Shown one piece after another: positions 13,131 to 54,656 of a stretch of 64,000 bases of DNA; within the stretch, counting starts at the first letter, position 1, and every line of letters starts with the position of its first letter. The DNA is from Escherichia phage phi92. Below the pieces are notes generated by a model. It was not told the origin of the DNA. It saw only the letters and a program-made list of their open reading frames with translations, and did not search any database. The stretch lies in the sequence record NC_023693.1; one strand, given 5' to 3'. Both the position numbers and the translations under genes were made by a program.

Positions 13131-13687
13131 TCAATATCCTCTTCGTAATCATCATCCCAAGAAGATGCGTCGTAACGCTCTTCCTCTTCGAAATCCCAGT
13201 TAATTTCTACCCCAAAATCTAAAAACAATTTAACAATGTTTTCTGTAGAGTAGTATTTATCATAAGCATTAGCTAGTTCCCAATACTTATCACTCAATTT
13301 TTTATAAGTAGGATCATTATAGTCATAATCTACTTTATAACCATAGTCATACATCTCTTGTTCAGCTTTAAGCATAGCTTCTGGTGTAAGAAGATTAGGG
13401 AACGGACGATTTCTTTCTTTTAACTTAGAAGCGATCCAGTTTGCAACATTCGCCACTTCACCATCTCGATTATCACCTAAACAACTTGCATAATCTCCAT
13501 CTTCGTAAGTGCCTAAATCCCCACTTACTTCATGTACAATAGATGAATACGATCCACACGTTTCACAATCTGAAAAAGTGTCTACTGTTGTAATATCAAT
13601 AGATAAAACTGGTAAAGCCATAGCTTCTTTCACACAAGCCTCCTCATATAATAACATGTCATCAAAACCCATATATCCTCCAGACAA
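13118..13687 (-). CDS. hypothetical acidic protein
   Basis: 189 aa, very acidic C-terminus. Confidence 0.55.
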   Translation of the reverse strand: MSGGYMGFDDMLLYEEACVKEAMALPVLSIDITTVDTFSDCETCGSYSSIVHEVSGDLGTYEDGDYASCLGDNRDGEVANVANWIASKLKERNRPFPNLLTPEAMLKAEQEMYDYGYKVDYDYNDPTYKKLSDKYWELANAYDKYYSTENIVKLFLDFGVEINWDFEEEERYDASSWDDDYEEDIECEE

Positions 13688-51350: not shown

Positions 51351-51617
51351 ATGACAGAAAAGACTTATGGTAAAGAATTGATTGAGAAGCACGTATTGAT
51401 TGATAATAAAGGTGGAGCAATCTTTATTTTTGAACCTGAATCAGTTCTTACTGAAAACGAAAATGGTAGCGTTAGCCTTAAAACAGAAAGTTTGGTAATT
51501 GACTTCCTTGCTCTTCTGGATGAAATGGGGCTTCCTCACGAAGAAGAAGCAGCTATTGCTTTGATTGCAGTTCTTCTGGAGAAACGCGAAGCTGGTGAAA
51601 TGACCCAGTATGCTTAA
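51351..51617 (+). CDS. hypothetical protein
   Basis: 88 aa, AAGGAGAA SD. Confidence 0.5.
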   Translation: MTEKTYGKELIEKHVLIDNKGGAIFIFEPESVLTENENGSVSLKTESLVIDFLALLDEMGLPHEEEAAIALIAVLLEKREAGEMTQYA

Positions 51618-51624
51618 TATTCAA

Positions 51625-51700
51625 GGTTCCATAGCTCACTGACGAGAGCGCACACCTCATAAGTGTCGAGGGCAGGGATTGTAACCCTGGGGAACCACCA
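51625..51700 (+). tRNA. tRNA-Met/Ile2-like (anticodon CAT), non-canonical T-loop
   Basis: manual fold: acceptor GGTTCC/GGAACC, D-stem GCTC/GAGC, anticodon loop CTCATAA, T-stem CAGGG/CCCTG with loop ATTGTAA, CCA encoded. Confidence 0.5.
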
Positions 51701-51731
51701 TTTAAAAGGAGGTGCTATGCATCTCCTATAT

Positions 51732-51817
51732 GCAAGTGTGGTGGAATTGGTGATACACATTGTGCTTAAAACGCAACGCTTAAATGCTTGAGGGTTCGAA
51801 TCCCTCCACTTGCACCA
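51732..51817 (+). tRNA. tRNA-Leu (anticodon TAA)
   Basis: manual fold: acceptor GCAAGTG/CACTTGC, anticodon stem TTGTG/CGCAA, loop CTTAAAA, long variable arm, T-arm GAGGG-TTCGAAT-CCCTC, CCA. Confidence 0.7.
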
Positions 51818-51833
51818 ACACCTAAAAAATATC

Positions 51834-51862
51834 TTGACATTTACTTAGTTTTTTGTTATAGT
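51834..51862 (+). promoter_or_regulatory. sigma70-like promoter (TTGACA-N17-TATAGT)
   Basis: immediately upstream of tRNA-like element at 51874. Confidence 0.45.
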
Positions 51863-51873
51863 TACTATGAAAA

Positions 51874-51955
51874 CGGGGTGTATCTCACCTGACTTCTAAT
51901 CAGGCGTTAACCGAGTAATTGGAGTATGCAGGTTCGAATCCTGTCACCCCGGCCA
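51874..51955 (+). tRNA. tRNA-like element, identity unresolved (candidate anticodon loop CTTCTAA)
   Basis: acceptor CGGGGTG/CACCCCG, T-arm GCAGG-TTCGAAT-CCTGT, CCA; perfect hairpin CCTGA-CTTCTAA-TCAGG but no D-arm found by eye. Confidence 0.4.
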
Positions 51956-51973
51956 AAAAGTTTTAAAAACTAC

Positions 51974-52002
51974 TTGACAAGCAAGATAGTTTTATGTTAG
52001 AT
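51974..52002 (+). promoter_or_regulatory. sigma70-like promoter (TTGACA-N17-TTAGAT)
   Basis: upstream of tRNA-Ser at 52019. Confidence 0.4.
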
Positions 52003-52018
52003 TTAAAGTATGATAACT

Positions 52019-52108
52019 GGAAGGTAGGGCGCAGCGGTGCGCAACCAGGTTTGAACCCTGGCCCATTGTAGCGATACGGTGATGGTTCGACTCCATTATC
52101 TTCCTCCA
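52019..52108 (+). tRNA. tRNA-Ser (anticodon TGA)
   Basis: manual fold: acceptor GGAAGGT/ATCTTCC, anticodon stem CCAGG/CCTGG loop TTTGAAC, long variable arm, T-loop TTCGACT, CCA. Confidence 0.65.
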
Positions 52109-52114
52109 AATTCA

Positions 52115-52279
52115 ATGAGTGATTTTATGAATTATAAAACTATTGGACAGGTTGTTACCGGAGTTAAGATTGTAAATAATAAAGTTGTTTATGAGTATTC
52201 TAATCTTCAACAATCTGAAGATGGTAAGAATATTCGTATGGTAAAAACAGAACAAAAAGATTCCGGTTGTTTTGAATAA
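52115..52279 (+). CDS. small hypothetical protein inside tRNA cluster
   Basis: ORF between tRNAs; start uncertain (ATG 52115 or 52127); weak SD. Confidence 0.3.
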   Translation: MSDFMNYKTIGQVVTGVKIVNNKVVYEYSNLQQSEDGKNIRMVKTEQKDSGCFE

Positions 52280-52287
52280 TTAAAAAC

Positions 52288-52373
52288 GGTAGATTGGTGA
52301 AATGGTAGCCACAACAGTTTGCTAAACTGTCGTCGGAAACGGCGTGTAGGTTCAAGTCCTACATCTACCGCCA
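52288..52373 (+). tRNA. tRNA-Ser (anticodon GCT)
   Basis: manual fold: acceptor GGTAGAT/ATCTACC, anticodon stem ACAGT/ACTGT loop TTGCTAA, long variable arm, T-arm GTAGG-TTCAAGT-CCTAC, CCA. Confidence 0.7.
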
Positions 52374-52507
52374 AGTTATCTTTAATGTAGCTTGTAATCT
52401 TACTTTAGCAGAGTAAACTTTCGGCAGATGGTGGCAGCCATTTTACCGATACCCCAATACTTCATAGCTAAGTGCCGCAAACACTGGCTATTTTAAAGAT
52501 AATTTAT

Positions 52508-52583
52508 ACATCGTTAGCTTAGTTGGTAGAGCAAGGGTCTTTTAACTCCAAGGTCGAAGGTTCGAATCCTTCACGATGTACCA
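52508..52583 (+). tRNA. tRNA-Lys-like (anticodon TTT), weak anticodon stem
   Basis: perfect acceptor ACATCGT/ACGATGT, D-arm GCTTAGTTGGTAGAGC, loop CTTTTAA, T-arm GAAGG-TTCGAAT-CCTTC, CCA; anticodon stem only about 3 bp. Confidence 0.55.
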
Positions 52584-52588
52584 AACAT

Positions 52589-52675
52589 GTAGGTATCGCA
52601 TAGCGGCAATTGCTGGAGACTGTAAATCTCTTGCCCTTCGGGGCTTCGTTGGTTCGAGTCCAACTACCTGCACCA
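52589..52675 (+). tRNA. tRNA-Tyr (anticodon GTA)
   Basis: manual fold: acceptor GTAGGTA/TACCTGC, anticodon stem GGAGA/TCTCT loop CTGTAAA, long variable arm, T-loop TTCGAGT, CCA. Confidence 0.65.
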
Positions 52676-52682
52676 AATTAAA

Positions 52683-52767
52683 GATGGATTGGCCTAGTGG
52701 TTGGGCGACGGACTGTTAATCCGTGAACGAAAGTTCTAGCAAGGTTCAAATCCTTGATCCATCGCCA
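52683..52767 (+). tRNA. tRNA with Asn anticodon (GTT) on a class-II (long variable arm) body
   Basis: manual fold: acceptor GATGGAT/ATCCATC, 3 bp D-stem, anticodon stem ACGGA/TCCGT loop CTGTTAA, variable arm hairpin GAAC-GAAA-GTTC, T-arm CAAGG-TTCAAAT-CCTTG, discriminator G, CCA. Confidence 0.55.
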
Positions 52768-52772
52768 TATAG

Positions 52773-52840
52773 TGCTTGTAGAGTTAATAGAAACCTCTAG
52801 AATTTTCTAGAATTGTAGGTATCAAATCCTACCAAGCAAA
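52773..52840 (+). tRNA. degenerate tRNA-like remnant (possible pseudo-tRNA)
   Basis: T-arm-like GTAGG-TATCAAAT-CCTAC with 8 nt loop, no CCA, overlapping TCTAGA inverted repeats instead of a clean anticodon arm. Confidence 0.2.
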
Positions 52841-52846
52841 TATTTT

Positions 52847-52921
52847 GCTCCTATCGTATAACGGCTATTACGGTTGCCTTGTAAGCAACTTATCAGGGTT
52901 CGAGTCCTTGTGGGAGCACCA
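52847..52921 (+). tRNA. tRNA-Thr (anticodon TGT)
   Basis: manual fold: acceptor GCTCCTA/TGGGAGC, anticodon stem GTTGC/GCAAC loop CTTGTAA, T-loop TTCGAGT, CCA. Confidence 0.7.
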
Positions 52922-52943
52922 ATTTAACTCTAAAGGAGTGTAT

Positions 52944-53267
52944 GTGACAGAAAAAGAGTTAGAGAAATATTTTAATATCAATGTTTTCGATGGTTTTGAT
53001 GATATTGAAGATGTTGAAAGATATTATGAAGTAGAGTTAGATAAGGATAACATTGTAATTCTTTCTGCCACTTATGATTGTGCATATTATGAAGGTGAAT
53101 CTCACGTTTATTTCTATGATATGAAAACATCTTTGTTTTATGAAGTACACGCATATCATTGTTCTTGTTATGGCTTAGAAGGTCAGTGGGAACCTGAAGA
53201 AATAGGTGATTTGGACTTTACTATTGCATATCTAAACAGACGTGGTGCATCTACTATTTTAAAATAA
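52944..53267 (+). CDS. hypothetical protein inside tRNA cluster
   Basis: GTG start after AAAGGAG SD; in frame with track ORF 52845-53267, whose 5' part overlaps tRNA-Thr. Confidence 0.45.
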   Translation: MTEKELEKYFNINVFDGFDDIEDVERYYEVELDKDNIVILSATYDCAYYEGESHVYFYDMKTSLFYEVHAYHCSCYGLEGQWEPEEIGDLDFTIAYLNRRGASTILK

Positions 53268-53281
53268 ATATTAAAAGCCTC

Positions 53282-53311
53282 TTGACAAAGGGGCTAATAA
53301 TATGTTAGAGT
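53282..53311 (+). promoter_or_regulatory. sigma70-like promoter (TTGACA-N18-TAGAGT)
   Basis: upstream of tRNA-Gly. Confidence 0.45.
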
Positions 53312-53322
53312 AATATTGTTAA

Positions 53323-53397
53323 GCGGGTATAGTGTTAATGGTAGCATATGAGGTTTCCACCCTCCAGGTGCAGGTTCAAGTCCTGTTACTCGCTCCA
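53323..53397 (+). tRNA. tRNA-Gly (anticodon TCC)
   Basis: manual fold: acceptor GCGGGTA/TACTCGC, anticodon loop TTTCCAC, T-arm GCAGG-TTCAAGT-CCTGT, CCA. Confidence 0.6.
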
Positions 53398-53828
53398 AGA
53401 TTATTTAAATGGAATCGCTAGAGAAAATTTCTCTTTTCGCTCATGGTTTTCTCCTTCAAACTCTAGCGGTTCTTTTTAAGTGATTTTTTAGTTTATTGGA
53501 GATTCACTGCCTTAGTGTGAGCTAAAATCGAGGAGCCATCGAACTGTCTGATTAATGATTTGCGAATCATTATAGTTTTAAGACCCCGGCAGTTTTATGG
53601 TGTACCTCTTGAATGTGAATGATGACGGGTTTATGGTTATCCTGGTCGTTAAATATCCAAAAACCTATGTTCCCCTTGAGGGCTTGCGCAGGCAATGCCA
53701 ATAAGTCCTGCATTTTCATTTAAAAGAGAATTTATAATGGAAAAAGATGAACTTAAGTATGCTAAGCCTCTGGCTTCTGCTGCACGAAAAGCAGTTCGTC
53801 ACTTTGTGGTAACACTGAAGTAATTTAT

Positions 53829-53903
53829 TGGAGATTGGCCTAGTGGGAAGGCAACGGCCTTTGAAGTCGTGATGACTAGGTTCGATTCCTAGATCTCCAG
53901 CCA
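53829..53903 (+). tRNA. tRNA-Gln (anticodon TTG)
   Basis: manual fold: acceptor TGGAGAT/ATCTCCA, anticodon stem ACGGC/GTCGT loop CTTTGAA, T-arm CTAGG-TTCGATT-CCTAG, CCA. Confidence 0.65.
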
Positions 53904-53910
53904 AGATTTA

Positions 53911-53986
53911 CAGTGCGTAGCGCAGTTGGTAGCGTGGGAGCCTTGGACGCTTCAGGTCGCAGGTTCGAGTCCTGCCGCACTGACCA
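53911..53986 (+). tRNA. tRNA-Pro (anticodon TGG)
   Basis: manual fold: acceptor CAGTGCG/CGCACTG, anticodon loop CTTGGAC, T-arm GCAGG-TTCGAGT-CCTGC, CCA. Confidence 0.65.
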
Positions 53987-53991
53987 AATTT

Positions 53992-54066
53992 GCAGAGATA
54001 GCTGAGACGGATTAGTGCTACCCTGAAAAGGTAGAAAGGATGGATCGTTACCATCTCTCTGCACCA
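53992..54066 (+). tRNA. tRNA-Phe (anticodon GAA), atypical T-loop
   Basis: manual fold: perfect acceptor GCAGAGA/TCTCTGC, anticodon stem CTACC/GGTAG loop CTGAAAA, T-arm GATGG-ATCGTTA-CCATC, CCA. Confidence 0.6.
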
Positions 54067-54143
54067 AATAACACCATCCAAGGAGAATACTTGGTTAACT
54101 GTCAATAGCACATTGAGGCTTCTTACAGTGGTGTACTTATTAT

Positions 54144-54228
54144 GGCTAAGTGGTGGAATGGTATACACGATACGCTTAGAACGTATTGCCCCAAGGGATT
54201 GTGAGTTCGAGTCTCACCTTAGCTACCA
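54144..54228 (+). tRNA. tRNA-Leu (anticodon TAG)
   Basis: manual fold: acceptor GGCTAAG/CTTAGCT, anticodon stem ATACG/CGTAT loop CTTAGAA, long variable arm, T-arm GTGAG-TTCGAGT-CTCAC, CCA. Confidence 0.7.
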
Positions 54229-54243
54229 AATTATTACAAGTTT

Positions 54244-54322
54244 CGCGGGATAGAGGAGTCTGGTCGTCCTCGCCAGTTTCATATGCTGGAGATCGTAGGT
54301 TCAAATCCTACTCCCGTTACCA
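54244..54322 (+). tRNA. tRNA-Met (anticodon CAT), initiator-like
   Basis: 5' CGCGGGA with unpaired position 1-72 (as in bacterial tRNA-fMet), anticodon stem CCAGT/GCTGG loop TTCATAT, T-arm GTAGG-TTCAAAT-CCTAC, CCA. Confidence 0.6.
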
Positions 54323-54387
54323 ACAAATACCTCCCTTCTGGTGTAATGATTAAATTACATTGACACTTCAAGGAACTCATAGCCGGG

Positions 54388-54463
54388 TAGATTTAAAAGA
54401 GTATGGTACTCAATATGGCTCCAAACCATAGATCAGGGGGTTCGATTCCTCACCTTGCTGCCA
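54388..54463 (+). tRNA. tRNA-Trp-like (anticodon CCA), acceptor stem not resolved
   Basis: perfect anticodon arm TATGG-CTCCAAA-CCATA, D-stem GAGT/ACTC, T-loop TTCGATT, 3' CCA; 5' acceptor strand does not pair well by eye. Confidence 0.4.
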
Positions 54464-54468
54464 ATTAT

Positions 54469-54544
54469 TGTGGTATCGTACAGATGGTTAGTACACTCGA
54501 CCGATAATCGAGAAACAACGGTTCGACTCCGTTTACCACGACCA
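54469..54544 (+). tRNA. tRNA-Ile (anticodon GAT)
   Basis: manual fold: acceptor TGTGGTA/TACCACG, anticodon stem CTCGA/TCGAG loop CCGATAA, T-arm AACGG-TTCGACT-CCGTT, CCA. Confidence 0.65.
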
Positions 54545-54656
54545 AACTCCGTGCCAGCGGTGTCTTCGAAGAACAAGCCTAGTTCCTTCTGAGATGGAGG
54601 GGTGCGACTCCTTAACGCACAATATACTACTACTAAATACTTATCAGGAGATATCA

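What the first reader, a model, noticed from the sequence alone, without database searches (positions are those of the whole stretch)
51625..54544. Large tRNA cluster with several non-canonical members
About 18 tRNA-like genes are interleaved with promoters and small ORFs. Hand folding suggests: (1) 52683-52767 has an Asn anticodon (loop CTGTTAA) on a class-II body with a GAAC-GAAA-GTTC variable-arm hairpin, 3 bp D-stem and G73, features normally seen on Ser/Leu/Tyr tRNAs, so it might be charged by SerRS or be an unusual Asn isoacceptor; (2) 51874-51955 has acceptor, T-arm and a perfect CCTGA-CTTCTAA-TCAGG hairpin but no recognisable D-arm; (3) 54388-54463 has a perfect Trp anticodon arm but an unpaired acceptor stem; (4) 52773-52840 looks like a decayed tRNA with TCTAGA inverted repeats; (5) two CAT-anticodon tRNAs, one initiator-like with a 1-72 mismatch. 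Non-canonical phage tRNAs can be decoys or replacements for tRNAs targeted by host nucleases.
Basis: seen in the sequence. Interest (0 to 1): 0.5.

Follow-up and report, generated by a model that had tools for sequence, protein, structure and literature searches.

The report
Phage tRNA cluster with remodelled tRNAs
This is the tRNA gene cluster of an E. coli phage (genus Justusliebigvirus), and four of its 18 members are not decayed genes: they belong to conserved phage families of oddly shaped tRNAs, including an arginine tRNA with no D-arm, which has not been reported outside mitochondria in the literature I could search.

Summary
Positions 51625-54544 carry 18 tRNA-shaped genes on the + strand, with three near-consensus promoters and small ORFs between them. 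The window is about 98.6% identical to Escherichia phage phiWec187.

All four odd members are conserved, and compensatory base changes support their structures.
1. 52683-52767 is a real tRNA-Asn(GUU) with an inserted 4-bp variable arm capped by GAAA. Similar genes occur in hundreds of phage genomes. The Asn identity set is invariant, and the Ser set is not conserved.
2. 51874-51955 is a D-arm-less tRNA with its own promoter. Its acceptor stem and T arm nearly match T5 tRNA-Arg(UCU). A 3-bp helix encloses the anticodon arm. The anticodon was UCU or CCU in all 70 copies found. The family is found almost only in phages and rarely co-occurs with a canonical tRNA-Arg(UCU).
3. 54381-54463 is a tRNA-Trp(CCA). 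It has an 8-bp acceptor stem, a 4-bp T stem and an extra closing helix.
4. 52772-52840 is a homologue of T5 "RNA3", a tRNA-like RNA without an anticodon loop.
5. One of the two CAU tRNAs resembles the T5 initiator tRNA.

Function is inferred, not shown. Most likely these are working replacement tRNAs reshaped to escape host tRNA nucleases.

The parts
51625..51700 (+). tRNA(CAU), elongator Met or Ile2 type. Its elbow is degenerate: D loop ACUGACGA has no GG, and T loop AUUGUAA has no T-Psi-C.
   Evidence: ARAGORN finds it. It falls below the Rfam gathering score. Relatives Tr1 and phAPEC8 have canonical loops at this position.
51732..51817 (+). tRNA-Leu(UAA), canonical class II
51834..51862 (+). 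Promoter-like site TTGACA-17-TATAGT with TG, 11 of 12 matches. Its -10 hexamer ends 12 nt upstream of the D-arm-less tRNA.
51874..51955 (+). D-arm-less tRNA-Arg(UCU), 82 nt. Layout: acceptor 51874-51880 paired with 51945-51951; U8-A9-U10; helix X (51884-51886 paired with 51913-51915) enclosing the anticodon arm 51888-51904 (loop CUUCUAA); invariant CGUUAA at 51905-51910; 12-nt connector UAAUUGGAGUAU at 51916-51927; T arm 51928-51944; G73; CCA.
   Evidence: Rfam tRNA, 38.6 bits. In a 41-sequence alignment, pair 12-41 is UA27/AU8/GC6 and pair 13-40 is CG34/GC4/UA3, with none unpaired. The acceptor stem and T arm nearly match T5 tRNA-Arg.
51974..52003 (+). Promoter-like site TTGACA-18-TAGATT with TG, upstream of tRNA-Ser(UGA)
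52019..52108 (+). tRNA-Ser(UGA), similar to T5 tRNA-Ser1. It has U73 and a Sec-like D arm. Whether it is 7/5 or 8/4 is unresolved.
   Evidence: (Rfam tRNA-Sec 35.3 bits)
52127..52279 (+). Small ORF, 50 aa, PHROG 22441, unknown function
52288..52373 (+). tRNA-Ser(GCU), canonical class II
52508..52583 (+). tRNA-Lys(UUU) with a weakened anticodon stem of 3 pairs. Positions 39-41 differ from the host AriB cleavage motif.
   Evidence: ARAGORN reports '???'. Rfam scores it 63.7 bits. The cleavage motif comes from PMC12409363.
52589..52675 (+). tRNA-Tyr(GUA), class II
52683..52767 (+). Class-II-shaped tRNA-Asn(GUU), 85 nt. The variable hairpin GAAC-GAAA-GUUC is at 52725-52736, followed by 3 unpaired nt. 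The D stem is 3 bp. It has G73 and an encoded CCA.
   Evidence: ARAGORN and Rfam (56.5 bits) agree. The variable stem covaries across 20 phage sequences.
52772..52840 (+). tRNA-like RNA homologous to T5 RNA3. It has an acceptor-like stem, the motif UAGAGUUAAnnnAAAC, a hairpin UCUAGA-AUUU-UCUAGA in place of an anticodon arm, a T arm with an 8-nt loop, and no CCA.
   Evidence: ARAGORN -mt. Homologues in phAPEC8 and T5 sit in the same position, directly 3' of tRNA-Asn. Fold z-score -3.5.
52847..52921 (+). tRNA-Thr(UGU). Position 39 differs from the host AriB motif.
52944..53267 (+). ORF, 107 aa, PHROG 8792, unknown function
53282..53311 (+). Promoter-like site TTGACA-18-TAGAGT with TG, upstream of tRNA-Gly
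53323..53397 (+). tRNA-Gly(UCC)
53829..54066 (+). tRNA-Gln(UUG) at 53829-53903, tRNA-Pro(UGG) at 53911-53986 and tRNA-Phe(GAA) at 53992-54066
54144..54228 (+). tRNA-Leu(UAG), class II
54244..54322 (+). Initiator-like tRNA(CAU), 79 nt. It has a C1xU72 mismatch, A11:U24 and a 5-bp D stem. It lacks the three G-C pairs in the anticodon stem.
   Evidence: ARAGORN and Rfam (48.9 bits). The 1-72 mismatch is kept in phAPEC8, Klebsiella phage phi1_175008 and the T5 'initiator tRNA fMet'.
54381..54463 (+). Non-canonical tRNA-Trp(CCA), 83 nt. Layout: 8-bp acceptor 54381-54388 paired with 54452-54459; helix Y (54390-54392 paired with 54432-54434); mini D hairpin 54399-54411; anticodon arm 54414-54430; 4-bp T stem 54437-54440 paired with 54448-54451; G73; CCA.
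   Evidence: ARAGORN -ps90 and -mt. Alignment and pair counts. RNAalifold independently predicts the 8-72 pair and the 4-bp T stem. The covariance model finds homologues in Felixounavirus and Seunavirus.
54469..54544 (+). tRNA-Ile(GAU)

Best explanation
**What it is.** The region is the tRNA gene cluster of a Justusliebigvirus (Stephanstirmvirinae) coliphage. It is transcribed rightward from several strong sigma-70-type promoters. Almost every product carries an encoded CCA.

**The members.** About 13 members are ordinary tRNAs. Four are structurally remodelled RNAs. Each belongs to a conserved phage family whose helices are kept by compensatory changes.
- tRNA-Asn(GUU) with a 4-bp, GNRA-capped hairpin inserted in the variable region.
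- tRNA-Arg(UCU) that has lost the D hairpin. A 3-bp helix between the 5' connector and the strand 3' of the anticodon arm turns the anticodon arm into an extended, interrupted stem.
- tRNA-Trp(CCA) with an 8-bp acceptor stem, a 4-bp T stem, a long 5' connector, a mini D hairpin, and a short helix between the connector and the variable loop.
- A T5-RNA3-type tRNA-like RNA without an anticodon loop.

**How it most likely works (inferred).** The first three are charged by host AsnRS, ArgRS and TrpRS and decode AAY, AGR and UGG. They would replace or supplement host tRNAs. Their altered shape would remove features recognised by host tRNA-cleaving defence nucleases. This extends to whole-arm architecture the known strategy of anticodon-stem-loop mutations in phage tRNAs.

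**Shown versus inferred.** Shown here: the sequences, the structures, their conservation and phage restriction, promoter placement, homology to T5 tRNA-Arg and T5 RNA3, and mutual exclusivity with canonical tRNA-Arg(UCU). Inferred: expression, aminoacylation, decoding, and nuclease evasion as the selective reason.
For: **Identity of the region.** The window is 98.6% identical to phiWec187, whose record annotates 15 tRNAs here.

**Asn.**
- The variable stem is 92% paired across 20 diverse phage sequences. Three of its four pairs show 5 pair types each.
- The CUGUUAA loop is invariant and G73 nearly so. This matches the bacterial Asn identity set of anticodon plus G73 (PMC9976931).
- It is the only tRNA-Asn in these clusters. 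Only 1 locus holds both a long and a short form.
- Related sequences occur in 614 phage records, including T4-like and T5-like phages.

**Arg.**
- In the 41-sequence alignment the acceptor, anticodon and T stems are 96-99% paired. Helix X pairs 12-41 and 13-40 are never broken and show 14 and 7 double changes.
- An anticodon-blind scan found 70 copies. 69 have UCU and 1 has CCU, both Arg.
- The 5' strand CGGGGUGUA (9 of 9) and the 3' 28 nt (27 of 28) match canonical T5 tRNA-Arg(UCU).
- The GGA in the connector could supply the A20 determinant; C35, U36 and G/A73 are present.
- A near-consensus promoter ends 12 nt upstream.
- Among loci holding at least 8 tRNAs, a separate tRNA-Arg(tct) is present in 1 of 39 with the family against 18 of 29 without it (Fisher p = 4e-8).
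- The window has no other tRNA-Arg. Relatives phAPEC8, Tr1, Klebsiella phage phi1_175008 and PVP-SE1 carry a canonical one instead.
- The motif occurs in only 2 short MAG contigs among 100,044 species genomes, against 65 viral contigs.

**Trp.**
- The 8-72 pair is UA5/AU3/CG1/UG1. Helix Y pair 11-53 shows four pair types. The mini D stem and anticodon stem covary.
- RNAalifold independently gives the 8/4 arrangement.
- A1:U72 (9 of 10 aligned sequences), invariant G73 and the CCA anticodon fit the bacterial Trp identity set.
- The window has no other tRNA-Trp.

**Nuclease context.**
- PARIS AriB cleaves E. coli tRNA-Lys(UUU), Thr(UGU) and Asn(GUU). Phage tRNA variants rescue infection.
- P2 OLD targets Thr(UGU), and phage tRNAs resist it by shortening the anticodon stem.
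- Retron-Eco7 PtuAB targets Tyr.
- The window's Lys-Tyr-Asn-Thr genes are adjacent. Lys and Thr are changed at positions 39-41. Asn keeps the host motif U36AAUC|C41 but carries the extra arm.
Against: - I have no expression, end-mapping or aminoacylation data for any odd member.
- Helices X and Y are only 2-4 bp. Energy-based folding does not predict them. In the window's own sequence the MFE prefers the GNRA hairpin, which competes with helix X.
- No nuclease is known to me that targets tRNA-Arg(UCU) or tRNA-Trp in phage defence, apart from colicin D for Arg (from memory). The nuclease-evasion rationale for those two is by analogy only.
- The Asn tRNA keeps the AriB cleavage motif, so protection by the variable arm is speculative.
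- A D-arm-less tRNA has not been shown to work with bacterial EF-Tu, ribosomes or ArgRS. ArgRS normally reads A20 in a D loop.
- The exclusivity statistic uses partial flanks of non-independent contigs that were retrieved by motif searches.
Confidence: 0.62

Rival explanations
1. The odd members are decaying pseudo-tRNAs or chance tRNA-like sequences with no function.
For: - Standard ARAGORN misses the Arg, Trp and RNA3-like elements.
- phAPEC8 annotators labelled the homologue of the 79-nt CAU tRNA 'tRNA-Pseudo-CAT'.
- 51625-51700 has lost both partners of the elbow contact.
- The window-type version of element 4 is found only within one genus at 97-99% identity.
Against: - All stems of the Asn, Arg and Trp families are kept by many compensatory changes across very different phage groups.
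- Loops and connectors are invariant while stems vary.
- The Arg element has its own near-consensus promoter.
- CCA is encoded.
- Element 4 keeps covarying acceptor and T stems in phAPEC8 and T5.
Confidence: 0.04
2. The Asn, Arg and Trp elements are made as stable RNAs but do not decode. They would act as decoys or sponges for host tRNA nucleases, tRNA-modifying enzymes or other tRNA-binding factors, or as processing punctuation.
For: - T5 and T4 tRNA clusters are known to contain tRNA-like stable RNAs of unknown function (T5 annotation).
- Element 4 is clearly such an RNA.
- PMC12409363 raises the possibility that some viral tRNAs act beyond rescuing translation.
- A missing D arm might be incompatible with ArgRS or the ribosome.
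Against: - Near mutual exclusivity with canonical tRNA-Arg(UCU) suggests the same job.
- The only anticodon change seen is to a synonymous Arg anticodon.
- Synthetase identity nucleotides, discriminators and CCA are conserved.
- The acceptor/T minihelix read by RNase P and EF-Tu is intact, as 7/5 or as 8/4 totalling 12 bp.
- These are the only Asn, Arg and Trp tRNAs in the cluster.
Confidence: 0.17
3. The Asn-anticodon class II tRNA is charged by SerRS, which reads the long variable arm and G73, and inserts Ser at Asn codons.
For:
- Class-II-bodied tRNAs with non-cognate anticodons are known, namely the allo-tRNAs.
Against: - G2:C71, conserved in bacterial tRNA-Ser, is not kept: pair 2-71 is AU7/CG7/GC6.
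- The anticodon GUU and G73, the AsnRS determinants, are invariant.
- Several family members have a D arm, anticodon arm and U1:A72 that look like E. coli tRNA-Asn as I recall it from memory, plus the inserted hairpin. This indicates descent from tRNA-Asn.
- The 3' linker of the variable arm has 3 nt, as in the phage tRNA-Tyr, not 1 nt as in its tRNA-Ser.
- It is the sole tRNA-Asn in these phage sets.
Confidence: 0.08
4. The tRNAs decode normally, but the remodelled shapes are not anti-nuclease adaptations. They could reflect tolerated drift, selection for processing or stability, escape from host modification or regulation, or binding sites for phage proteins.
For: - No nuclease data exist for these RNAs.
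- The Asn tRNA keeps the AriB motif.
- Hairpin insertions in the variable arm are tolerated in translation (PMC7590224, abstract listed).
- The invariant connector sequences CGUUAA and UAAYUGGAGUAU suggest a specific ligand or tertiary fold.
Against: - The same architectures persist across unrelated phage families and hosts, which argues for strong selection rather than drift.
- The known selective pressure on phage tRNAs of exactly these isoacceptors (Lys, Thr, Asn, Tyr) is nuclease attack.
Confidence: 0.25

Closest known systems
Phage T5 tRNA region: 24 tRNAs plus 'tRNA-like stable RNAs' RNA1, RNA2 and RNA3 (NC_005859 annotation)
   Same: - Both are clusters of tRNAs interleaved with promoters, small ORFs and tRNA-like RNAs.
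- The window's element 4 shares sequence motifs with T5 RNA3 and the same position directly 3' of tRNA-Asn.
- The window's Arg element shares its acceptor and T arm with T5 tRNA-Arg.
- The 79-nt CAU tRNA resembles the T5 initiator tRNA, and Ser(UGA) is 80% identical to T5 Ser1.
   Different: - T5 tRNA-Arg and tRNA-Asn are canonical class I tRNAs of 75 and 78 nt.
- The T5 RNA3 copy ends in CCA; the window copy does not.
- The phage belongs to a different family: a myovirus of Stephanstirmvirinae against Demerecviridae.
D-arm-lacking mitochondrial tRNA-Ser(AGY/AGN) of animals
   Same: - No D hairpin.
- A three-way junction of acceptor, anticodon and T helices.
- The anticodon stem is effectively extended.
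- The anticodon reads AGR/AGY-box codons (GCU or UCU in mitochondria). This comparison rests on established knowledge and PMC9976931.
   Different: - This one is in phages of bacteria, not an organelle.
- It is 82 nt, not shortened.
- It is derived from tRNA-Arg, not tRNA-Ser.
- It has conserved 6-7-nt and 12-nt connectors and a canonical T loop.
- It would have to work with bacterial EF-Tu, ribosomes and ArgRS.
8/4 and 9/3 tRNAs, including allo-tRNAs and the (8/4) tRNA-Ser and tRNA-His of phages (Mukai et al. 2017, PMC5389517)
   Same: - A 12-bp acceptor branch split 8 + 4 instead of 7 + 5.
- Found in phage tRNA clusters.
   Different: - The window's 8/4 tRNA has a Trp anticodon and the Trp identity elements A1:U72 and G73.
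- It has no long variable arm.
- It has a 10-nt 5' connector, a mini D hairpin, and a closing helix between the connector and the variable loop. None of these appears in the passages of that paper I searched.
Class II (long variable arm) tRNAs: Ser, Leu, bacterial Tyr, Sec
   Same: - A stem-loop variable arm with a GNRA or UUCG-type cap.
- A 3-bp D stem.
- 85 nt long.
   Different: - The anticodon and discriminator are those of Asn.
- The body of several family members is that of a class I tRNA-Asn with a hairpin inserted.
- The variable stem is only 4 bp.
Nuclease-resistant phage tRNAs (T5 tRNA-Lys, Thr and Asn against PARIS AriB; phage tRNA-Thr against P2 OLD; phage tRNA-Tyr against retron-Eco7 PtuAB)
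   Same: - The same isoacceptors, clustered together in the window.
- The window's Lys and Thr carry changes at positions 39-41 and a weakened anticodon stem, like the published resistant variants.
   Different: - Published resistance rests on point changes in the anticodon stem-loop.
- Here the departures are whole-arm changes: an added variable arm, a lost D arm, and an 8/4 branch. Their effect on nucleases is untested.

Membership tests
Canonical cloverleaf tRNA (applied to 51874-51955) | 7-bp acceptor stem, 5-bp T stem with a T-Psi-C-type loop, and a discriminator followed by CCA | tested here: met
   Acceptor 99% and T stem 99% paired in 41 sequences. The loop is TTCGAAT. G73 and CCA are present.
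Canonical cloverleaf tRNA (applied to 51874-51955) | D arm: a hairpin between positions 10 and 25 with G18-G19 in its loop | tested here: not met
   Only 7 nt separate the acceptor and anticodon stems. RNAalifold predicts no D hairpin. Instead, 11-13 pair with 40-42 around the anticodon arm.
Canonical cloverleaf tRNA (applied to 51874-51955) | 5-bp anticodon stem with a 7-nt loop containing U33 and a purine at position 37 | tested here: met
   The stem is 96% paired and 4 of its 5 pairs covary. The loop is CUUCUAA in 60 of 70 copies.
Bacterial tRNA-Arg identity (A20, C35, U/G36, A/G73; PMC9976931) | C35, U36 and A/G73 | tested here: met
   The anticodon is UCU in 69 of 70 copies and CCU in 1. 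The discriminator is mostly G or A.
Bacterial tRNA-Arg identity (A20, C35, U/G36, A/G73; PMC9976931) | A20 in the D loop after G18-G19 | tested here: inconclusive
   There is no D loop. A nearly invariant GGA sits in the 12-nt connector before the T arm. Whether it occupies the A20 position cannot be told from sequence.
Bacterial tRNA-Arg identity | Charged with arginine by ArgRS | not testable with these tools
   Needs an aminoacylation assay.
D-arm-lacking tRNA (mitochondrial tRNA-Ser(AGY) type) | D hairpin absent, with the acceptor, anticodon and T helices retained | tested here: met
D-arm-lacking tRNA (mitochondrial tRNA-Ser(AGY) type) | Encoded in and used by animal mitochondria, with serine identity | tested here: not met
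   The family occurs in phage genomes. Its acceptor and T arm are homologous to phage tRNA-Arg.
Class II tRNA (applied to 52683-52767) | Variable region longer than 10 nt that forms a stem-loop | tested here: met
   The variable region is 15 nt. The 4-bp stem is 92% paired and covaries.
Class II tRNA (applied to 52683-52767) | Isoacceptor family is Ser, Leu, Tyr or Sec | tested here: not met
   The anticodon is GUU (Asn) according to ARAGORN and the Rfam-supported frame.
Bacterial tRNA-Asn identity (G34, U35, U36, G73) | Anticodon GUU and discriminator G73 | tested here: met
   The GUU anticodon is invariant and G73 nearly so in the family alignment. The identity set comes from PMC9976931.
Bacterial tRNA-Ser identity | G1:C72 and G2:C71 conserved, plus a long variable arm and G73 | tested here: not met
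   Pair 2-71 is AU7/CG7/GC6 and pair 1-72 is GC12/UA6. The variable arm and G73 are present. The window copy has A2:U71.
8/4 tRNAs (Mukai 2017) (applied to 54381-54463) | 8-bp acceptor stem plus 4-bp T stem | tested here: met
   Pair 8-72 is UA5/AU3/CG1/UG1 with none broken. The T stem 57-60:68-71 is 100% paired and 56/72 is unpaired. RNAalifold agrees. The FelixO1-type copy has a perfect 8-bp acceptor.
allo-tRNA | Long variable arm and serine identity | tested here: not met
   The variable region is 5-6 nt, and the identity elements are those of Trp: A1:U72, G73 and CCA.
Bacterial initiator tRNA (applied to 54244-54322) | Mismatch at 1-72 | tested here: met
   C1xU72 in the window. The mismatch is kept as AxC, UxC and UxU in phAPEC8, Klebsiella phage phi1_175008 and T5 tRNA-fMet.
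Bacterial initiator tRNA (applied to 54244-54322) | Three consecutive G:C pairs at 29-31:39-41 of the anticodon stem | tested here: not met
   The stem is CCAGU/GCUGG. The T5 copy annotated as initiator also lacks them.
T5 RNA3-type tRNA-like RNA (applied to 52772-52840) | Motif UAGAGUUAAnnnAAAC, a T arm with an 8-nt nAUCRAAU loop, a hairpin in place of the anticodon loop, and a position directly 3' of tRNA-Asn | tested here: met
T5 RNA3-type tRNA-like RNA (applied to 52772-52840) | 3' CCA end, as in the T5 copy | tested here: not met
   The window copy ends ...CAAGCAA-A-UAU and the phAPEC8 copy ends ...GAGUCC-C-AGC.

The most novel reading that the evidence does not exclude
Large virulent phages have evolved, and spread across unrelated phage families from E. 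coli to Streptomyces hosts, a working elongator tRNA-Arg with no D arm. Its anticodon arm is enclosed by a new 3-bp helix. They also carry an 8/4 tRNA-Trp with an analogous closing helix and a tRNA-Asn with an added arm. If these are charged and used on bacterial ribosomes, they would be the first non-organellar D-arm-less translating tRNA. They would also show that remodelling of whole tRNA arms, not just anticodon-loop point changes, is a phage counter-defence against tRNA-cleaving immunity.
Probability: 0.4. Interest if true: 0.85.

Novelty: new variant of a known kind. Interest (0 to 1): 0.66.

Why it matters
- **tRNA biology.** Cytoplasmic and bacterial tRNAs are held to a standard cloverleaf because they share RNase P, EF-Tu, synthetases and the ribosome. 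A conserved, phage-specific tRNA-Arg without a D arm, and a Trp tRNA with an 8/4 branch and an extra helix, would mark how far that standard can bend in bacteria.
- **Synthetic biology.** They would give natural scaffolds for orthogonal tRNA design.
- **Phage defence.** tRNA-cleaving systems such as PARIS, OLD, retron effectors, PrrC and Schlafen-type nucleases are now recognised as widespread. These genes are ready-made candidates for resistant tRNAs, and they suggest new nuclease targets (Arg-UCU and Trp) to look for.
- **Annotation.** The Arg and Trp genes are missing from most deposited annotations, including the FelixO1 reference record. The tRNA sets of many phages are therefore under-counted, and codon-usage analyses that rely on them are biased.

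Tried and rejected
- **GNRA hairpin in the Arg element.** I first read a variable hairpin CCGA-GUAA-UUGG, as in the single-sequence MFE. I rejected it because it has only 1 compensatory cell and the 41-46 pair is broken in 21 of 41 sequences.
- **CUC at 11-13 pairing with GAG at 49-51.** I dropped this once sequences with other triplets showed the partner is at 40-42.
- **Excising the anticodon hairpin or the connector to recover a cloverleaf.** No canonical fold results (reasoned from the sequence).
- **ARAGORN with relaxed thresholds.** It recovers the Trp and RNA3-like elements but never the Arg element. At -ps80 it adds obvious false positives on the minus strand.
- **blastn for distant homologues of element 4.** It found only the same genus. 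Homology to phAPEC8 and T5 RNA3 emerged only from direct inspection of syntenic spacers.
- **Is tRNA-Ser(UGA) 7/5 or 8/4?** I compared 29 homologues. The critical nucleotide can pair either way, so this stays unresolved.
- **Literature searches.** Eight full-text searches for a class II tRNA-Asn or a D-arm-less phage tRNA found no description. Absence from this library is not proof of novelty.
- **Is T5 tRNA-Asn, used in the PARIS work, class II?** It is not; it is 78 nt.

Full report
**What the window is.** A megablast of 51600-54600 finds 98.6% identity over the full length to Escherichia phage phiWec187 (Justusliebigvirus, Stephanstirmvirinae). Identity to about 50 other members of that genus is similar. 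The public records annotate 15 tRNAs here. Pharokka-annotated records add a "tRNA-OTHER" at the position of 51874-51955. So the cluster itself is already in databases. The open question is what its odd members are.

**Checking the observation.**
- ARAGORN finds 15 tRNAs between 51625 and 54544, all on the + strand.
- Rfam finds 14 above gathering. These include 51874-51952 (38.6 bits), which ARAGORN misses. Rfam misses 51625 (Met) and 52019 (Ser-UGA), which score only as tRNA-Sec-like.
- ARAGORN at 90% threshold adds Trp(cca) at 54386-54463. In mitochondrial mode it gives Trp at 54381-54463 and a tRNA-like call at 52772-52840.
- Three promoter-like sites with TTGACA, a 17-18 nt spacer, an extended -10 and 10-11 of 12 matches lie at 51834-51862, 51974-52003 and 53282-53311.
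- The small ORFs match PHROG families of unknown function.

**Asn (52683-52767).** Both tools read anticodon GUU in an 85-nt tRNA with a GAAC-GAAA-GUUC variable hairpin, a 3-bp D stem, G73 and an encoded CCA.
- Homologues occur in Phapecoctavirus, other Stephanstirmvirinae, Seunavirus (PVP-SE1), the T5-like Priunavirus PSTCR5, and many viral contigs.
- A T4-like version alone hits 614 phage records, including Klebsiella T4-like phages of about 166 kb and many T5-like phages of about 110 kb.
- In a 20-sequence alignment the variable stem is 92% paired. Pair 47-57 is AU10/UA4/GC3/GU1/UG1. Pair 49-56 is GC7/UA4/CG3/AU2/UG2. Pair 50-55 is CG8/AU3/UG3/UA2/GC1. The arm is therefore a selected structure.
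- The CUGUUAA loop is invariant and G73 nearly so. This is the bacterial Asn identity set.
- G2:C71, conserved in bacterial tRNA-Ser, is not kept.
- Several members (L093, L128, L090) have a D arm, anticodon arm and U1:A72 that look like E. coli tRNA-Asn, as I recall that sequence from memory, plus the inserted hairpin. This points to descent from tRNA-Asn rather than from a Ser or Tyr tRNA by anticodon mutation.
- It is the only tRNA-Asn in these clusters.
- I therefore read it as an Asn isoacceptor with an added arm. Charging by SerRS is not excluded, but I consider it unlikely.

**Arg (51874-51955).**
- blastn finds this 82-nt element at 83-86% identity in Felixounavirus, T5-like Klebsiella phages, jumbo Asteriusvirus, Mydovirus-like phages and Streptomyces phages (Genie2). 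It is nearly always unannotated.
- A motif scan of IMG/VR gave 70 loci and 41 distinct sequences.
- The acceptor, anticodon and T stems are 96-99% paired with abundant double changes.
- The apparent GNRA "variable hairpin" is not supported.
- A 3-bp helix is supported between the nucleotides just after U8-A9-U10 and the nucleotides just before an invariant UAA. C11-G42 is invariant. Pair 12-41 is UA27/AU8/GC6. Pair 13-40 is CG34/GC4/UA3. None is broken.
- This helix X encloses the anticodon arm. The anticodon domain is therefore one long hairpin, interrupted by a 1 x 6-7 nt internal loop containing the invariant CGUUAA. It joins the T arm through an invariant 12-nt connector, UAAYUGGAGUAU.
- RNAalifold predicts the three standard helices and no D hairpin. 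As expected for a 3-bp helix, it does not predict helix X on energy alone.

**Why I call it a tRNA-Arg.**
- The 5' nine nucleotides and 27 of the 28 3'-terminal nucleotides (T arm, acceptor strand, G73, CCA) are identical to canonical T5 tRNA-Arg(UCU).
- An anticodon-blind scan found 70 copies, 69 with UCU and one with CCU, both Arg.
- C35, U36 and A/G73 match the ArgRS determinants. A GGA in the connector could stand in for G18-G19-A20.
- Among held loci with at least 8 tRNAs, a separate tRNA-Arg(tct) occurs in 1 of 39 with the family against 18 of 29 without it (p = 4e-8).
- The window has no other tRNA-Arg. Its relatives phAPEC8, Tr1, Klebsiella phage phi1_175008 and PVP-SE1 have a canonical one.
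- A near-consensus promoter ends 12 nt upstream of the 5' end.
- The family motif occurs in only two short MAG contigs among 100,044 species genomes. One of those contigs carries 14 tRNAs and looks like phage DNA.

**Trp (54381-54463).** The "unpaired acceptor" was a boundary error.
- The 5' strand is AGCCGGGU (54381-54388). It pairs with 54452-54459, with one conserved C4xU69 mismatch.
- Homologues lie in Citrobacter phage Tr1, Klebsiella phage KP13-26, Hafnia phage SarahDanielle, "Listeria" phage LPML1, PVP-SE1 (where it is annotated tRNA-Trp), and FelixO1-type phages, where it is unannotated.
- Pair 8-72 is UA5/AU3/CG1/UG1 with none broken. The first T-stem position is unpaired. The acceptor branch is therefore 8 + 4, which RNAalifold also predicts.
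- A covarying mini D hairpin of 4-5 bp, with a 3-5 nt loop containing GG, sits after a 10-nt connector.
- Nucleotides 10-12 pair with variable-loop nucleotides 52-54. Pair 11-53 shows four pair types, and seven distinct complementary combinations appear across all subtypes.
- A1:U72 (9 of 10 aligned sequences), invariant G73 and CCA fit bacterial Trp identity.
- 8/4 tRNAs have been reported in phages for Ser and His. This Trp form with a closing helix does not appear in the passages of that paper I searched.

**Element 4 (52772-52840).** blastn finds the window-type sequence only in Justusliebigvirus.
- The syntenic spacer after tRNA-Asn in phAPEC8, and the T5 gene annotated "RNA3, putative tRNA-like RNA", share UAGAGUUAAnnnAAAC and an 8-nt nAUCRAAU T loop. 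Their acceptor and T stems covary.
- All three have a variable hairpin where an anticodon arm would be.
- It is thus a member of a known but uncharacterised class of tRNA-like RNAs in phage tRNA clusters. It is not a decoding tRNA, and it is not simply decay.

**CAU tRNAs.**
- 54244-54322 has C1xU72, A11:U24 and a long D stem. The 1-72 mismatch is conserved in relatives and in the T5 "initiator tRNA fMet". The three G:C pairs typical of initiator anticodon stems are absent, as they are in T5.
- 51625-51700 is an elongator Met or Ile2-type tRNA. In this genus it has lost both G18-G19 and the T-Psi-C sequence, although relatives keep them.

**Mechanism.** Published work shows the following.
- PARIS AriB cleaves host tRNA-Lys(UUU), Thr(UGU) and Asn(GUU) at 40|41. 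T5 versions of these tRNAs rescue infection.
- P2 OLD targets Thr(UGU). Phage tRNAs resist it by shortening the anticodon stem.
- Retron-Eco7 PtuAB targets Tyr(GUA).

In the window, Lys, Tyr, Asn and Thr are adjacent.
- Lys has only three anticodon-stem pairs and differs from the host at positions 39-41.
- Thr differs at position 39.
- Asn keeps the host motif but carries the extra arm, which emerges next to the cleavage site.

My best reading is that the remodelled tRNAs are working replacements whose shape defeats host tRNA-targeting nucleases. For Arg and Trp this rests on analogy only. Expression, charging, decoding and nuclease resistance remain untested.

**Novelty.**
- Already known: the cluster, the tRNA-Asn gene and the RNA3-like element are in databases. 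8/4 tRNAs and D-arm-less tRNAs are known kinds.
- Apparently new, as far as eight full-text searches show: a conserved class-II-shaped tRNA-Asn family; a phage-specific D-arm-less tRNA-Arg family with an enclosing helix; and an 8/4 tRNA-Trp with an analogous helix.
- I rate it a new variant of a known kind, with moderately high interest.

Noticed in passing
window 53492-53828: About 340 nt are 97-99% identical to T-even (Tequatrovirus) DNA at the rIII locus. The 28-aa ORF at 53737-53823 matches the C-terminal 27 residues of the 'lysis inhibition accessory protein' family. The segment is absent from some close relatives, such as Antha. It looks like a recent transfer from a T4-like phage into the tRNA cluster, and it explains the about 1200 records hit.
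   Followed up: partly
window 52374-52507: The 134-nt spacer between tRNA-Ser(GCU) and tRNA-Lys folds much better than shuffles (z = -2.95). The phAPEC8 homologue (L003:2784-2910) keeps the 11-bp closing helix and an inner hairpin through compensatory changes. This is a candidate stable RNA like those in the T5 and T4 tRNA clusters.
   Followed up: partly
window 53398-53491: A long interrupted hairpin (z = -5.06), followed by a U-run, lies directly after tRNA-Gly. It may be a terminator or a processing site.
   Followed up: no
window 52508-52583: tRNA-Lys(UUU) has an anticodon stem with only three pairs (A27xA43 and U31xC39 are mismatched), so ARAGORN reports '???'. Positions 39-41 differ from the host sequence cut by PARIS AriB, as in the resistant T5 tRNA-Lys.
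   Followed up: partly
window 51625-51700: The first CAU tRNA lacks both G18-G19 in the D loop and T-Psi-C in the T loop, whereas its homologues in Tr1 and phAPEC8 keep them. Both elbow partners have been lost together. It scores below the Rfam gathering threshold.
   Followed up: partly
window 52019-52108: tRNA-Ser(UGA) is 80% identical to T5 tRNA-Ser1. It has U73 and a Sec-like D arm, and it scores as tRNA-Sec (35.3 bits) rather than tRNA in Rfam. It may belong to the 8/4 tRNA-Ser type reported in phages, but 29 homologues could not decide between 7/5 and 8/4.
   Followed up: partly
L005:4270-4358, L008:3786-3874, L004:2848-2933, L004:4036-4117: Relatives carry other over-long tRNAs outside the Ser, Leu and Tyr families. 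There are 89-nt tRNA-Glu(UUC) genes with a GGAAAC-type variable hairpin in Tr1 and Klebsiella phage phi1_175008. PVP-SE1 has an 86-nt tRNA-Lys and an 82-nt CAU tRNA. Arm insertions seem to recur in these phages.
   Followed up: no
L009:2084-2166 and L009:1501-1584 (FelixO1, NC_005282): The reference FelixO1 record annotates neither the 8/4 tRNA-Trp homologue nor the D-arm-less tRNA-Arg. An annotated HNH endonuclease ORF overlaps the 3' end of the Arg gene.
   Followed up: partly
records MG065639, MG065645, MG065656, MG065689: Four records named 'Campylobacter phage' (A150, A145, C3, A110a) are 98% identical to this E. coli phage genus over the whole cluster. The host labels are probably wrong.
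   Followed up: no
L141:13018 and 13332-13429: One viral contig carries the only CCU-anticodon member of the D-arm-less family. About 300 nt downstream it also carries a 98-nt ARAGORN 'tRNA-Arg(tct)' call. This may be a second odd Arg tRNA, but I did not examine it.
   Followed up: no
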